Shown here piece after piece: positions 16,746 through 19,327 of a stretch of DNA of 64,000 nt. The notes under the pieces were generated by a model. The model searched no databases. It saw only the letters and a program-made list of their open reading frames with translations, and was not told where the DNA came from. The position numbers and the translations under genes were made by a program. Origin of the DNA: Candidatus Gastranaerophilales bacterium (lineage in GTDB: Bacteria > Cyanobacteriota > Vampirovibrionia > Gastranaerophilales > CAJFVJ01); assembly GCA_944323485.1 (NCBI GenBank), contig CALUSR010000001.1:386437-450436 (forward strand), written 5' to 3'. Position 1 is the stretch's first letter. Each line of letters begins with the position of its first letter.

Positions 16746-16813
16746 TTGATTCAGATATATCTGTATTTTATGAATTTGTAAGCTTGCGTGATAAAAAAAC
16801 AGTGTGAATATAA

Positions 16814-16963
16814 GGAACTTATATAGCCAATTTCACAGATAATATTAGAAGTCCGTCATTCTGAGGGCTTTAGCCCGAAGAATCCTTTTTGTTCAGATAC
16901 TTCGCTAACGCTCAGTATGACGTTGTTTGGGAAATTTTTGACGGAATTTGCTATATAAATTCC
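16814..16963. mobile_element. MITE copy 1: 150 bp, 21-bp TIRs, 8-bp TSD GAATATAA (16806-16813 / 16964-16971)
   Basis: TIRs GGAACTTATATAGCCAATTTC and GGAATTTGCTATATAAATTCC (18/21 inverted match); perfect flanking 8-bp direct repeat; 139/150 identical to the copy at 48647. Confidence 0.9.
16854..16921. repeat. CGTC-tagged REP-like inverted doublet inside the MITE
   Basis: CGTCATTCTGAGGGCTTTAGCCCGAAGAATC ... GATACTTCGCTAACGCTCAGTATGACG; the two units are inverted homologues, each with a small internal hairpin. Confidence 0.75.
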
Positions 16964-17041
16964 GAATATAAGATTTTTACAAATACCGTAATAAATAATA
17001 TAATAAACTAAAAACTCTGTTATACAAAAATAATTCGGATA

Positions 17042-17819
17042 ATGATTATGAAAAATTTGTTTTATACGGAAAAGATTGAAGGGACTCACAGAGTTATTTG
17101 TCTTTGCGGGATAAAGCTGAAATTCAGACTTTCGCAAAGGGAGCGTGAAAAAAAAAGAGGGAACAAGTTTATTTTGCATAAAGAAAACGGAGAGATTGTC
17201 GAGTTTCCCCAAATTGACGGTCTTGATGTTGTGTTCAAAGGACAAAATTGTACTGTAGAAATTTTTGAACCCTGCAATTTCAAAAAAGAGAGCTGGCATC
17301 AATCGAGGATTGAAATGGAAGGAGAAAATCATTTTGCACGAATAAAAGGCTCAAAGTATGGTATAGCAAGGCTTGAGGCGAATTTTCGGGGGGGGGGGAA
17401 CATCCCTTTTAATTGGAGAAAATTTTTATCTTACGGGTCATGTTCGTTTTGATATTGAGAGTGAAGGTTGCTGCTCCATAAAAATCGGTGATGATTGTAT
17501 GTTTGCAGATGGAATAAATTTTTTGGGAACTGATAGGCATACAATTTATGATATTTCTGATAGAAAAAATATAAACCTGACTAAATACGGAATAACTGTT
17601 GGCAACCACGTATGGGTTGCACGCAATGTTGTTGTATTGAAAGATGTCACAATACCTGATAACACGGTTGTTGGTATCGGGAGTATTGTTACCAAATCGT
17701 TTGATGAGGAGAATACAATTATCGGAGGGGTTCCGGCAAAAATTTTGAGAAGGGGAGTGAACTGGGACAGACGCAAACAGACCGAATATCTCAAATCACT
17801 TGAAGACACCGGATTATAA
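17042..17819 (+). pseudogene. Hexapeptide-repeat (LbH) sugar O-acetyltransferase split by a G11 tract (frameshifted; candidate phase-variable gene)
   Basis: ORFs 17042-17452 and 17373-17819 join into one 258-aa frame if G11 (17388-17398) is G10. C-terminal IKIGDDCMFA, ITVGNHVWVA, IPDNTVVGIGSIVTK, GGVPAKI are LbH acetyltransferase motifs. Confidence 0.85.
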
Positions 17820-17938
17820 TTCTTATATAAAAAGAAAGCTTGAAGAAGCTTGTTTTATTGATAAGAAAATAACAGAGCAATGGTATCCTGAGGAGGATTA
17901 TCATACTTTATATATTGCCGGGATTGAGAAGATTTTGC

Positions 17939-19327
17939 TCAAAGACTGAGTGCATAGGCAAACAGCTCGCCGACTTGATGATTGTAGTATCTTCCGTCGT
18001 CTTTTGCAAAAAGATTTTCCCAGTGGCTTTCGGGTGTTCCATCTGTTGAATATGACGGGTTGCACATCATCAAATGGTGGGTGTTTGTGTCATATCTAAG
18101 AGGAAAGAGGTCTTCTGTTTGCATAAAACTCGGGAGTTTATCACTCGGGTATGTGAAGGCAAACAGGCATGTTCTTATTCTGGATAAGCGTTGTTCATAG
18201 GTTCGTCCTCCTTCGTCGTTGTCATTTGACACTTCTGCTCCGGGGGCATAGTCTCTTGAGTATTTCAGTTTATCAGACCATTCTTTTACGGTGTCAAAGT
18301 TGTCCACACTGACAAATGAAGTTCCTGCGGTCAGCCCCATTTTTCTGTAGCGTTCAAAATCGTCTGAACTCTTTTCGCCGACAAAACTGAGAGTTGTTTT
18401 TCCCGTGCGTCTTCTGATTTCATGCAGAATATGCTGCATTTGACGGTAATCAGGAAGTGCTCCGACACCTGTGTAGTTTCCGAGGTCATAGCCTCCGATA
18501 TGTTTTGCGGAGTCTATGAACATGGCTTCAAACCCGAGGTTGAAAAGTTTTGTACATTCTTCAATAAAGAGTTCTTCATGTTCTTTTTTCCACCATCTGA
18601 ACCATTCATCTTCCTGATATGGTCTTGCAATCTTTAGCTGGTCTTCTGAGATGACCATGCGGAATCCTGTTTTTATACCGCGGAAATGAGCAAGGTCATT
18701 GAAGGCACGTAGCTGGTCTTCGGGGCTTATTTTACTGATGATTGAGTTTGCAATGATGTTTTCGCTGTATCCTGAATTTAGTTTTATGCCGTAGATGGAG
18801 TTTTCTTCATGAGGAAGTTTGTTGTATCCGTCGCCATAAATATTCGGGAAAATTTGAGACAGGATTATGCAGTTTGCCCAGCTTTTTGCTGAAGGGGGGA
18901 TTGCGCTGAGGAGTTTTATAGTGCTGATTATTCCGTCAGAACATCTGTTTCCGTTCATTTTTGCGATGGCACGATTGTTTATTTCAATATAATTTGCAAG
19001 CCTGCCCCATCGGTCGCCATAGTTTGGAGAGTCGATGTTATCAGGGAATTTACGATAGAAAATGCCTCCCTCGCTGAGTGTCATAATTGAGTTAACGGCA
19101 CGTTTGAGAGATCTGTTCAGAACATCAGCGGGTACAATATTTGACAACCATTTTTTTGCGCGGGCTGCTCCTATGCCTCTGTAAGCTTTTGTTTCACTCC
19201 ATTTATCATAGTGCAGGACATCACTCCCGCAGACAGCTTTCAGAAGCTTGTTGCAGGGATTGTCTTGTTTTTCACCCGAGTATGATGCAGCGGAAGATTT
19301 TTCTTTTTCATAATATTTATTCTTCAT
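17939..19327 (-). CDS. Divergent GH13 (alpha-amylase family)-like protein
   Basis: CIILSQIFP, LAHFRGIKTGFRMV (region I-like), GFEAMFIDSAKHIG (region II Asp), FVGEKS (region III Glu), VSNDNDE (region IV Asp). Confidence 0.6.
   Translation of the reverse strand: MKNKYYEKEKSSAASYSGEKQDNPCNKLLKAVCGSDVLHYDKWSETKAYRGIGAARAKKWLSNIVPADVLNRSLKRAVNSIMTLSEGGIFYRKFPDNIDSPNYGDRWGRLANYIEINNRAIAKMNGNRCSDGIISTIKLLSAIPPSAKSWANCIILSQIFPNIYGDGYNKLPHEENSIYGIKLNSGYSENIIANSIISKISPEDQLRAFNDLAHFRGIKTGFRMVISEDQLKIARPYQEDEWFRWWKKEHEELFIEECTKLFNLGFEAMFIDSAKHIGGYDLGNYTGVGALPDYRQMQHILHEIRRRTGKTTLSFVGEKSSDDFERYRKMGLTAGTSFVSVDNFDTVKEWSDKLKYSRDYAPGAEVSNDNDEGGRTYEQRLSRIRTCLFAFTYPSDKLPSFMQTEDLFPLRYDTNTHHLMMCNPSYSTDGTPESHWENLFAKDDGRYYNHQVGELFAYALSL

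What the first reader, a model, noticed from the sequence alone, without database searches (positions are those of the whole stretch)
17388..17398. G11 tract switches an O-acetyltransferase OFF: candidate phase-variable contingency gene
This is by far the longest G run I saw in an AT-rich window, and it lies exactly at the junction of two overlapping ORFs. G10 or G13 restores a 258-aa LbH acetyltransferase (...ANFRGGGTSLLIGEN...). An in-frame A9 run (17148-17156) is a second possible slip site. Poly-G switching of glycan O-acetylation is established in host-associated bacteria as a way to evade phage and immunity.
Basis: partly seen in the sequence, partly recalled or inferred. Interest (0 to 1): 0.65.

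Follow-up and report, generated by a model that had tools for sequence, protein, structure and literature searches.

The report
Poly-G on/off switch in acetyltransferase gene
A run of eleven G's splits a sugar-acetylating enzyme gene of an uncultured chicken-gut bacterium, and because the run is 7 to 14 G's long in otherwise identical strains while the rest of the gene stays intact, it is very probably a classical slip-prone on/off switch, a known mechanism with no published report in this bacterial lineage.

Summary
G11 at 17388-17398 is the only G/C run of 7 or more in the window. It is one of three runs of 8 or more in the 2.05-Mb genome, and it separates two overlapping ORFs.

G7, G10 or G13 fuse them into a 255-257-aa left-handed beta-helix O-acetyltransferase. 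Its closest solved relatives are the sialic-acid capsule O-acetyltransferases OatWY and NeuO. All six active-site residues those two share are present, and all lie downstream of the tract.

The organism is a chicken-gut Gastranaerophilales (genus Candidatus Adamsella).

- **Tract variation:** independent public assemblies show G7, G8, G9, G10, G11, G12, G13 and G14, often with zero differences in about 2 kb of flank.
- **Control:** a C10 tract in another gene never changes length in 8 of the same runs.
- **Gene integrity:** 27 of 27 loci have no other lesion. The part downstream of the tract has pN/pS 0.065.
- **Conservation:** the tract is kept in two species.
- **Expression:** the gene is found in metatranscriptome contigs.
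- **Homologues:** relatives in other gut bacteria carry G/C tracts at other positions.

The A9 "second slip site" is not.

Within-clone switching, substrate and phenotype remain untested. The gene is an accessory cassette that replaced a flavin-reductase gene. The mechanism is known, so this is a new member of a known kind.

The parts
17388..17398 (+). G11 homopolymer tract, the proposed switch. It encodes the end of Arg114 and Gly115-117 of the enzyme in the in-frame lengths G7 (GG), G10 (GGG) and G13 (GGGG). The window's G11 is out of frame (OFF).
   Evidence: Lengths 7-14 are seen elsewhere. In the AlphaFold model it lies in a turn between strands 110-115 and 119-122.
17042..17452 (+). ORF1. 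This is the N-terminal part of the acetyltransferase (residues 1-116 of the 258-aa reading) followed by 20 out-of-frame codons and a stop. Gene callers start at ATG 17048.
   Evidence: The 134-aa products P0125, P0131 and P0134 in public assemblies are this OFF fragment.
17399..17819 (+). The part of the acetyltransferase downstream of the tract, in the ORF2 frame. It holds all catalytic and active-site residues (M151, H164, W189, R192, W239, R241 in 256-aa numbering). It is not translated from the upstream start in the G11 state.
   Evidence: Alignment to OatWY, with residue roles taken from PMC3046976. These positions are invariant or nearly invariant in 40 homologues. pN/pS is 0.065.
16976..17004 (+). 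Promoter-like site TTTACA-17 nt-TATAAT (11 of 12), 38 nt before the ATG at 17042.
   Evidence: Metatranscriptome contigs begin at 17015 and 17026. The sequence is identical in strains that carry the alternative flavin-reductase allele.
17032..17839 (+). The 808-nt segment, essentially the whole acetyltransferase gene, that is present or absent between strains. It is replaced by a 169-aa Flavin_Reduct gene in about half of the contigs with an identical neighbouring gene.
   Evidence: Joint 17031>17840 at depth 293 against 24.7 for the gene-bearing form in run X31. Loci L067-L071 against L064-L066.
17845..17949 (+). Remnant of the last ~35 codons of the displaced flavin-reductase gene (..EEACFIDKKITEQWYPEEDYHTLYIAGIEKILLKD*). 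It shows that the acetyltransferase cassette is the derived state.
   Evidence: the window ORF 17800-17949 matches the C-terminus of the 169-aa protein of L067.
17148..17156 (+). It is not variable.
   Evidence: The N-terminal part is exactly 336 nt in 27 of 27 loci. There is no indel in runs X1-X4. It is interrupted in the sister species.
16806..16971 (.). MITE copy directly upstream of the promoter (context only). It is retained in both alleles of the locus.
Evidence: The region is 87-100% identical in L067. Summed depth in metatranscriptomes is very high.

Best explanation
This is a simple-sequence-repeat contingency locus. The gene encodes a NeuO/OatWY-family acetyl-CoA-dependent O-acetyltransferase, transcribed from its own promoter. 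A poly-G tract sits in a surface turn of the beta-helix at codons 114-117. Slipped-strand mispairing at replication changes the number of G's. Lengths 7, 10 and 13 keep the frame and only change the number of glycines (GG, GGG, GGGG), giving a full enzyme (ON). Lengths 8, 9, 11, 12 and 14 stop translation 5-20 codons after the tract, giving a 120-136-aa fragment that lacks every catalytic residue (OFF). The window is an OFF (G11) variant. A population therefore holds acetylating and non-acetylating cells.

Shown here:
- the tract is hypermutable between near-identical strains;
- the frame logic holds;
- the rest of the gene is under purifying selection;
- the tract is conserved in two species;
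- the gene is transcribed;
- it belongs to the NeuO/OatWY enzyme family.

Inferred:
- switching is fast and reversible within one clone;
- the acceptor is a surface glycan, most likely one that contains a sialic-acid-like nonulosonic acid, since the genome has a NeuB synthase next to a Maf-like flagellin glycosyltransferase and 8 flagellin genes;
- the benefit is escape from phage or host recognition.
For: Tract variation:
- Protein variants RGGTS (255 aa), RGGGTS (256 aa) and RGGGGTS (257 aa), plus 134-aa OFF fragments, sit in one 90% cluster.
- DNA of 11 Logan runs from several studies reads G9 once, G10 three times, G11 five times, G12 once and G14 once, with 0-1 other differences in 181-601 nt.
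- ENA, NCBI and Logan contigs add G7, G8, G9, G12 and G14.
- Some pairs have 0 differences in ~2 kb of flank but different tracts: G12/G7 and G10/G12.

Technical control: the genome's C10 tract shows no length change in 8 runs in which the G tract takes five lengths.

Selection:
- 27 of 27 loci have a 336-nt and a 420-nt part without any stop or indel.
- pN/pS is 0 for codons 37-112 and 0.065 downstream of the tract. Neighbouring housekeeping genes give 0.05-0.25.
- The sister species Candidatus Adamsella avium keeps the tract, as G12.

Enzyme family:
- A profile search against PDB sequences gives OatWY 1.3e-59 and NeuO 1.7e-50, against maltose acetyltransferase 1e-25.
- The AlphaFold model has pLDDT 88, and its top Foldseek matches are OatWY and NeuO with TM 0.73.
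- The six shared active-site residues are conserved.

Expression: there is a promoter-like site, and metatranscriptome contigs cover both halves of the gene.

Convergence: homologues in other gut genomes carry G10, G8 or C8 tracts at different codons, some in frame and some not.

Rarity: 3 long tracts against 0.83 expected, with depletion of 7-8-mers.
Against: - No raw reads were available, so heterogeneity inside one sample or clone, the defining behaviour of phase variation, was not seen. Each Logan run gave a single contig over the tract.
- Out-of-frame lengths dominate in samples not chosen by protein state (about 3 ON in 22). That would also fit a dispensable gene.
- The gene is accessory and absent from about half of conspecific contigs.
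- MutS and MutL are present, so slippage is not boosted by loss of mismatch repair as it is in Campylobacter.
- The C10 tract in the same genome does not vary, so long G/C tracts are not automatically variable here. Selection against frameshifts in that gene would explain this too.
- No Shine-Dalgarno sequence is evident before the start codon.
- Substrate and phenotype are inferred only.
Confidence: 0.8

Rival explanations
1. This is a dispensable accessory gene on its way to loss. The tract is simply the first place where a neutral frameshift hits, and length differences are neutral strain polymorphisms with no adaptive switching.
For: OFF lengths predominate in unselected samples: 8 of 11 Logan runs, and all AT-bearing places. 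The gene is absent and replaced by a flavin-reductase gene in about half of conspecific contigs, and in the dominant strain of run X31.
Against: There is no second lesion in 27 of 27 loci. The half that is untranslated in the OFF state has pN/pS 0.065, with 13 synonymous against 3 conservative changes, which is as constrained as housekeeping neighbours. In-frame alleles G7, G10 and G13 are common; P0122 alone is indexed in 43 blocks. The tract persists uninterrupted in two species. Independent tracts occur in homologues.
Confidence: 0.08
2. This is a sequencing or assembly artefact. The true tract has a single in-frame length and homopolymer errors create the apparent variation.
For: Homopolymers are error-prone. 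Some public contigs show odd compound forms (T7G7T, T9G8T, G9T, G11AAAA) that may be assembler errors. An earlier scan note (e1-1970872) called a similar G13-T7 form an assembly error. RNA contigs of X40 break around the tract.
Against: The range is 7-14, not plus or minus 1. The same lengths recur in different studies and with different assemblers. Depths of 15-70 give one clean contig per run. The C10 tract of the same genome shows no length change in the same 8 runs. The A9 and T8 runs nearby show no indels.
Confidence: 0.03
3. The G11 allele is expressed anyway. Transcriptional slippage of RNA polymerase on the G run, or +1/-2 ribosomal frameshifting, restores the frame in a fraction of products, so the tract tunes the level rather than switching the gene.
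For: Long homopolymers are known to cause RNA polymerase slippage (general knowledge). One metatranscriptome contig (X41, 17211-17411) reads G10.
Against: No matched DNA exists for X41, and G10 DNA alleles are common, so the RNA G10 is most simply a G10 strain. If out-of-frame DNA lengths were rescued, DNA length would be neutral, yet the in-frame alleles are only ever 7, 10 or 13. Nothing here tests this idea.
Confidence: 0.06

Closest known systems
NeuO, polysialic-acid O-acetyltransferase of E. coli K1 prophage CUS-3 (PDB 3JQY)
   Same: It belongs to the same enzyme family: profile E 1.7e-50, Foldseek TM 0.73, and the His/Trp catalytic pair plus Met, Arg, Trp and Arg are conserved. It is also an accessory, horizontally acquired gene. 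It is also switched on and off by strand slippage in a repeat inside the coding region, with in-frame repeat numbers adding residues to the protein (PMC3046976).
   Different: NeuO's repeat is a heptanucleotide VNTR (AAGACTC, 2-93 copies) two nucleotides after the start codon. Here the repeat is a mononucleotide G tract at codons 114-117, inside the beta-helix. Sequence identity is only ~26-28%. The host is an uncultured Gastranaerophilales, not a proteobacterial pathogen. No prophage context is seen, and the substrate is unknown.
OatWY, sialate O-acetyltransferase of Neisseria meningitidis serogroups W-135 and Y (PDB 2WLC-2WLG)
   Same: It is the best sequence and fold match: profile E 1.3e-59 over nearly the whole chain, phmmer 1.2e-24, and the top Foldseek hit. 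M108, H121, W145, R148, W195 and R197 align with M151, H164, W189, R192, W239 and R241.
   Different: To my knowledge (not checked here) OatWY is not controlled by a homopolymer tract. It sits in a capsule locus, whereas this gene stands alone between rarA and an unrelated gene. This protein also has about 35 extra, poorly conserved N-terminal residues.
Poly-G/C contingency loci of Campylobacter jejuni and Helicobacter (capsule, LOS and flagellar-glycosylation genes, including maf/DUF115 genes)
   Same: The tract is an intragenic G/C homopolymer of 8-13 nt in an AT-rich genome of a gut (here chicken-gut) bacterium. It switches glycan-modifying genes by frameshift, and there are few such tracts per genome against a depleted background (PMC8355987, PMC2823697). 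This genome also has a NeuB plus Maf-like pair and flagellins.
   Different: MutS and MutL are present here. Only three long tracts exist in this genome, against some 20-30 in the genomes of those organisms, and only one of them was seen to vary. The phylum is different (non-photosynthetic Cyanobacteriota).

Membership tests
NeuO/OatWY subfamily of LbH (hexapeptide) O-acetyltransferases | Left-handed beta-helix fold over the whole chain | tested here: met
   The AlphaFold2 model has pLDDT 88.1 and pTM 0.83, with beta strands from residue 40 to 235. Foldseek places it with LbH acetyltransferases only. The Pfam Hexapep hit is weak at 17.9 bits, below the cut-off of 27.
NeuO/OatWY subfamily of LbH (hexapeptide) O-acetyltransferases | Closer to NeuO and OatWY than to other LbH acetyltransferases (MAT, LacA, Vat, CysE) | tested here: met
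   Profile of 40 homologues: OatWY 1.3e-59 and NeuO 1.7e-50, against the best maltose O-acetyltransferase at 9e-26. Single sequence: 1.2e-24 and 8.7e-21, against 2e-18. Foldseek ranks 1-8 are OatWY and NeuO chains, with TM 0.73 against 0.49 or less for the others.
NeuO/OatWY subfamily of LbH (hexapeptide) O-acetyltransferases | The six active-site residues shared by NeuO and OatWY: catalytic His and Trp, plus Met, Arg, Trp and Arg (PMC3046976) | tested here: met
   The HMMER alignment to OatWY puts M151, H164, W189, R192, W239 and R241 on M108, H121, W145, R148, W195 and R197. H164, W189 and W239 are invariant and M151 is at least 90% conserved in 40 homologues.
NeuO/OatWY subfamily of LbH (hexapeptide) O-acetyltransferases | Acceptor is a sialic-acid-containing polymer | not testable with these tools
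   The support is indirect only. The genome encodes a NeuB-family nonulosonic-acid synthase (269 bits) beside a HAD phosphatase and a Maf-like PF01973 protein, and it has 8 flagellin hits. The acetyltransferase is not linked to them.
Simple-sequence-repeat contingency (phase-variable) locus | A long repeat in the coding region or promoter, rarer than composition predicts | tested here: met
   G11 lies in the coding region. 0.029 runs of 11 or more are expected per genome, and runs of 7-8 are depleted: 3 observed against ~23 expected.
Simple-sequence-repeat contingency (phase-variable) locus | Repeat number differs between otherwise (near-)identical strains, and far more often than flanking sites change | tested here: met
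   G7-G14 is seen across assemblies. One CDS haplotype carries G10, G11 and G12. Pairs with 0 differences in ~2 kb of flank carry G12 and G7, or G10 and G12. The C10 control shows a length change in 0 of 8 runs.
Simple-sequence-repeat contingency (phase-variable) locus | Length changes toggle an otherwise intact reading frame that is under purifying selection | tested here: met
   Both halves are intact in 27 of 27 loci. G7, G10 and G13 give proteins of 255, 256 and 257 aa. pN/pS downstream of the tract is 0.065.
Simple-sequence-repeat contingency (phase-variable) locus | High-frequency, reversible switching within a clonal population | not testable with these tools
   Only Logan contigs, not raw reads, were on offer for all runs found, and contigs drop minority variants. 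The organism is uncultured.
Simple-sequence-repeat contingency (phase-variable) locus | The gene product acts on a surface or host- or phage-exposed structure | tested here: inconclusive
   Family membership (NeuO/OatWY capsule modifiers) suggests it. There is no genomic linkage to a glycan cluster.

The most novel reading that the evidence does not exclude
The acetyltransferase with its built-in poly-G switch may be a self-contained, exchangeable "switchable module". It replaced a resident flavin-reductase gene behind a resident promoter. It is more alike between two Adamsella species (95-98%) than the flanks are (85-93%). Relatives of the same NeuO/OatWY family in other Gastranaerophilales, in a Muribaculaceae and in MAGs filed as Alphaproteobacteria or proteobacteria have independently acquired G/C tracts at different codons. 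On this reading, phase-variable O-acetylation of a nonulosonic-acid glycan (possibly on flagellin) would be a widespread, convergently evolved strategy of uncultured gut commensals against phage or host immunity, and part of a Gastranaerophilales "phasome".
Probability: 0.25. Interest if true: 0.6.

Novelty: new member of a known kind. Interest (0 to 1): 0.4.

Why it matters
Phase variation through homopolymer slippage is textbook for Campylobacter, Helicobacter, Neisseria and Haemophilus. I found no paper that reports it for Melainabacteria or Gastranaerophilales, the uncultured non-photosynthetic relatives of cyanobacteria that live in animal guts.

This locus is an unusually clean natural experiment. 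Dozens of public chicken-gut assemblies give an allelic series from G7 to G14 on identical backgrounds. The genome supplies an internal control tract, and the gene shows clear purifying selection.

It suggests that these commensals stochastically vary a NeuO/OatWY-type O-acetylation of a surface glycan. This is the same modification that changes phage and immune recognition of the E. coli K1 capsule.

Practically, it warns annotators that the "pseudogene" here is a switch. It also gives a marker for following within-host population dynamics of an uncultured bacterium. It does not reveal a new mechanism.

Tried and rejected
- **Raw reads.** Three run searches (DNA, any, RNA) returned only Logan contigs and no raw reads, so within-sample tract-length spectra could not be measured. 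Each DNA run gave one contig over the tract.
- **JGI metagenome scan**. It gave only one close locus (L022, G11 followed by AAAA, in frame). The rest were distant homologues.
- **Pfam and NCBIfam**. They gave only sub-threshold hits (Hexapep 17.9 bits; maltose O-acetyltransferase, LacA, WbbJ, WcaF). The maltose acetyltransferase label was rejected once profile and fold searches put OatWY and NeuO far ahead.
- **A9 run as a second switch.** Rejected, because no length variation was seen and the run is interrupted in the sister species.
- **Loss of mismatch repair as the cause of hypermutability.** Rejected, because MutS and MutL are present.
- **Membership of a glycan gene cluster.** Rejected. 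The neighbours are rarA, a YjbR fusion, an unannotated 462-aa protein and the AmmeMemoRadiSam genes.
- **ORF2's TTG at 17373 as an independent start giving a catalytic fragment.** Judged unlikely. There is no ribosome-binding site at a usable distance, and half of the beta-helix would be missing. This is inference and was not tested.
- **Odd compound tracts** (T7G7T, T9G8T, G9T; L014, L017, L020, L021). I could not decide whether these are real alleles or assembler artefacts, so they are left out of the length series.
- **The other two long tracts.** C10 in a radical-SAM gene was not variable in 8 runs. C9 lies after a tRNA and was not examined for variation.

Full report
**1. Observation**

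The window reads ...GCGAATTTTC-G11-AACATCC..., with the eleven G's at 17388-17398. It is the only G or C run of 7 or more in the 64-kb window, which is 36.2% G+C. The next longest are G6 and C5.

The window is C1:386437-450436 of a 2,048,635-base genome in 8 contigs. In that genome only three G/C runs reach 8 or more: C10 at C1:69667-69676, this G11, and C9 at C5:15137-15145.

From base composition one expects 0.83 runs of 9 or more and 0.029 runs of 11 or more. Runs of 7-8 are depleted, with 3 seen against about 23 expected. A few long tracts on a depleted background is the pattern expected if long tracts are costly except where they are kept for a reason.

ORF1 (17042-17452) and ORF2 (17373-17819) overlap at the tract, and ORF2 is in the +1 frame. 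One G fewer or two more fuses them.

**2. Organism**

A scan of species-representative genomes found the closest relative in Candidatus Adamsella avium, a chicken-gut MAG. It is 98% identical at protein level, carries G12, and so is also out of frame. It is the only other species of the genus held (G001).

More distant homologues are mostly in MAGs labelled Gastranaerophilales. All runs that hold the locus are chicken, bird or gut metagenomes. The genome is therefore an uncultured gut Gastranaerophilales (Melainabacteria, non-photosynthetic Cyanobacteriota).

**3. The tract is hypervariable in nature**

The protein cluster that contains the fused product (135 member sequences) holds these forms:

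| Form | Length | Tract state |
|---|---|---|
| ...RGGTS... | 255 aa | G7, full length |
| ...RGGGTS... | 256 aa | G10, full length |
| ...RGGGGTS... | 257 aa | G13, full length |
| 134-aa fragments ending ...RGGGNIPF... | 134 aa | G11, OFF |
| C-terminal fragments | 98-106 aa | called when the gene is split |

At DNA level, Logan contigs of eleven metagenome runs from several studies read as follows, with 0-1 other differences in the 181-601 bases laid:

| Tract | Runs |
|---|---|
| G9 | X2 |
| G10 | X12, X29, X31 |
| G11 | X1, X3, X4, X5, X25 |
| G12 | X34 |
| G14 | X14 |

Contigs fetched from ENA, NCBI and Logan add G7 (L032, with 23 similar places), G8 (L048, L064), G9 (L065), G12 (L016, L042, L047, L066) and G14 (L039).

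One coding haplotype, the window's, occurs with G10, G11 and G12. Other haplotypes occur with G12 and G7, with G10 and G8, and with G11 and G12. Pairs with zero differences in about 2 kb of flank differ by 2-5 G's. The tract therefore mutates far faster than any other site of the locus, and it does so repeatedly.

**4. Not a technical artefact**

The genome's own C10 tract, inside a radical-SAM gene, serves as a control of the same chemistry. In eight runs in which the G tract takes five different lengths (9, 10, 10, 10, 11, 11, 12, 14), the C10 tract never changes length. Two runs have a C>T substitution at its first base. The A9 run inside the gene is equally stable.

A few public contigs show compound forms (T7G7T, T9G8T, G9T, G11AAAA). 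I could not tell whether these are real, so I do not count them.

**5. Not a decaying pseudogene**

In 27 of 27 loci the part before the tract is exactly 336 nt and the part after it exactly 420 nt, without a stop or an indel.

Between the window's species and Ca. A. avium, the coding constraint is as follows:

| Region | Synonymous changes | Non-synonymous changes | pN/pS |
|---|---|---|---|
| Codons 37-112 | 3 | 0 | 0 |
| 139 codons downstream of the tract | 13 | 3 (conservative) | 0.065 |
| Neighbouring genes | - | - | 0.05-0.25 |

Only the first 36 codons evolve fast. These are disordered in the model.

A region that is untranslated in the G11 state can only stay this constrained if it is translated often enough. 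This means the in-frame state recurs. The tract itself has survived, uninterrupted, in two species.

**6. What the gene encodes**

Pfam and NCBIfam give only sub-threshold hexapeptide and sugar O-acetyltransferase hits. A profile of 40 homologues searched against PDB sequences gives these matches:

| Match | PDB | E-value |
|---|---|---|
| OatWY, sialate capsule O-acetyltransferase of N. meningitidis W-135/Y | 2WLC | 1.3e-59, nearly full length |
| NeuO, polysialic-acid O-acetyltransferase of E. coli K1 | 3JQY | 1.7e-50 |
| Maltose O-acetyltransferases | - | about 1e-25 |

The single sequence gives the same order. An AlphaFold2 model (pLDDT 88, pTM 0.83) has OatWY and NeuO chains as its eight best Foldseek matches, with TM 0.73 normalised to the target.

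The NeuO structure paper lists six active-site residues shared by NeuO and OatWY (PMC3046976): the catalytic His147/121 and Trp171/145, plus Met134/108, Arg174/148, Trp220/195 and Arg222/197. In the HMMER alignment they correspond to H164, W189, M151, R192, W239 and R241 of this protein. Most of these are invariant in the 40 homologues.

All six lie downstream of the tract, so the OFF product cannot be active. The tract encodes Arg114-Gly117, a turn between two beta strands. That fits the tolerance of two, three or four glycines.

**7. Expression**

A near-consensus promoter, TTTACA-17-TATAAT at 16976-17004, lies 38 nt before the first ATG. Contigs of four chicken-gut metatranscriptomes cover both halves of the gene, and two of them begin at 17015 and 17026, just downstream of the -10 box. 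One RNA contig that spans the tract reads G10. DNA carry-over cannot be excluded, and there is no matched DNA.

The control therefore appears to be translational, by frame, and not transcriptional.

**8. Genomic setting: an accessory cassette**

The gene is not in a glycan cluster. It lies alone between rarA and a convergent 462-aa gene of unknown function.

In run X31 the dominant strain (depth about 300) skips 17032-17839, while a minor strain (depth 24.7) carries the gene with G10.

Contigs that encode the identical 462-aa neighbour carry one of two alleles:

- The split acetyltransferase, in about 11 contigs.
- A 169-aa Flavin_Reduct gene behind the same MITE and promoter, in about 13 contigs.

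The window still holds the last ~35 codons of that flavin-reductase gene at 17845-17949. The acetyltransferase cassette is therefore the derived state and replaced the 5' part of the older gene.

The cassette is 95-98% identical between the two species, while the flanks are 85-93% identical. Its pS is 0.13, against 0.31-0.48 in the flanks. This suggests recent exchange between species.

**9. Possible acceptor (inference)**

The genome has a NeuB-family nonulosonic-acid synthase (269 bits). It lies next to a HAD phosphatase, a Maf-like PF01973 protein (the family of flagellin nonulosonic-acid glycosyltransferases) and a TPR protein. The genome also has eight flagellin hits.

A NeuO/OatWY-type enzyme acting on a sialic-acid-like sugar of flagellin or of a surface polysaccharide is therefore plausible. 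It is unproven; I put it at about 0.4.

**10. Convergence**

Homologues at 30-45% identity in other gut genomes carry their own tracts at other codons:

| Locus | Source | Tract | State |
|---|---|---|---|
| L057 | another Gastranaerophilales genus | G10 at codons ~9-12 | in frame |
| L011 | Muribaculaceae | G10 just before the catalytic Trp | in frame |
| L006 | MAG filed as uncultured proteobacterium | G8 near the C-terminus | out of frame |
| L010 | MAG filed as uncultured Alphaproteobacteria | C8 near the 5' end | out of frame |
| L058 | Gastranaerophilales | C15 at the start of a neighbouring gene of unknown function | not assessed |

Four of about 29 homologous genes have a G/C tract of 8 or more. 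In this genome such tracts occur three times in 2 Mb, so this is far above background. Earlier notes of this scan describe similar poly-G genes in other Gastranaerophilales genomes. I treat them as leads and not as support.

**11. Verdict**

This is a poly-G contingency gene, caught in the OFF state.

- **Known:** the mechanism, the family precedent (NeuO is itself phase-variable through a different repeat), and the ecology.
- **New:** the lineage (no paper found), the mid-gene position in a beta-helix turn, the clean natural allelic series, and the cassette replacement.
- **Missing:** within-clone switching, substrate and phenotype.

My confidence is 0.8 in the switch. Among the rivals I give 0.08 to a neutral accessory gene, 0.06 to rescue at the RNA or ribosome level, and 0.03 to an artefact. 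Interest is moderate at 0.4, and the class is a new member of a known kind.

Noticed in passing
window 17032-17949; loci L064-L071: The locus has two alleles in one species. One is the acetyltransferase cassette. The other is a 169-aa Flavin_Reduct (PF01613) gene behind the same MITE and promoter. The window keeps the last ~35 codons of the flavin-reductase gene (17845-17949), so the acetyltransferase replaced it. In run X31 the flavin-reductase or empty form has depth ~293, against 24.7 for the acetyltransferase form.
   Followed up: partly
window 17098-17846 against L001: The acetyltransferase gene is 95-98% identical between the window's species and Ca. Adamsella avium, while flanking genes are 85-93% identical (pS 0.13 against 0.31-0.48). 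This suggests recent exchange of the cassette between species.
   Followed up: partly
genome contig C1:69667-69676 (locus L030:2668-2677): A C10 tract lies in frame (..KWLGGGDTV..) near the 3' end of a 333-aa radical-SAM gene. That gene sits beside a second radical-SAM paralogue, a Glyco_trans_1_2 gene, an ORF that looks by eye like the UDP-glucose 4-epimerase GalE, and an SdrD_B-like protein. No length change was seen in 8 runs, and two runs have C>T at the first C. An earlier scan note reports tract-bearing radical-SAM paralogues in another Gastranaerophilales genome.
   Followed up: partly
genome contig C5:15137-15145 (locus L031): A C9 tract lies directly after what looks by eye like the 3' end of a tRNA gene (not checked with a tRNA finder) and ~27 nt before the start of an ORF that looks like the RNA ligase RtcB. 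It was not examined for variation.
   Followed up: no
loci L057 (34, 1191), L011 (4158), L006 (2057, 4521), L010 (4029), L058 (1343): Homologues of this acetyltransferase, and some of their neighbours, in other gut MAGs carry G8-G10, C8 or C15 tracts at different positions, some in frame and some not. L006 has a second G8 at the junction of two ORFs upstream.
   Followed up: partly
genome contig C4:241285-246328: A NeuB-family synthase (295 aa), a HAD phosphatase (161 aa), a Maf-like PF01973 protein (619 aa) and a TPR protein (608 aa) lie in one strand block. There are eight flagellin-N hits elsewhere in the genome. This is a likely flagellin nonulosonic-acid glycosylation system.
   Followed up: partly
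loci L014, L017, L020, L021, L022: Compound tract forms were seen: T7G7T, T9G8T and G9T, where the A after the tract is a T (synonymous in the ON frame), and G11AAAA (in frame). Two forms recur in assemblies of different studies. It is undecided whether they are real alleles or assembler artefacts.
   Followed up: no
window 16806-16971: The MITE upstream of the promoter has a summed contig depth of 480-870 in metatranscriptome X40, against 6-13 over the acetyltransferase gene. The depth is summed over many copies from many loci, so copies of this element family are abundantly represented in RNA.
   Followed up: no
window 17020-17048 against L067: The acetyltransferase start has no evident Shine-Dalgarno sequence. 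The alternative flavin-reductase allele has AGGAGG 7 nt before its ATG.
   Followed up: no
whole genome: G/C runs of 7-8 are strongly depleted, with 3 observed against ~23 expected from composition, although MutS and MutL are present.
   Followed up: partly
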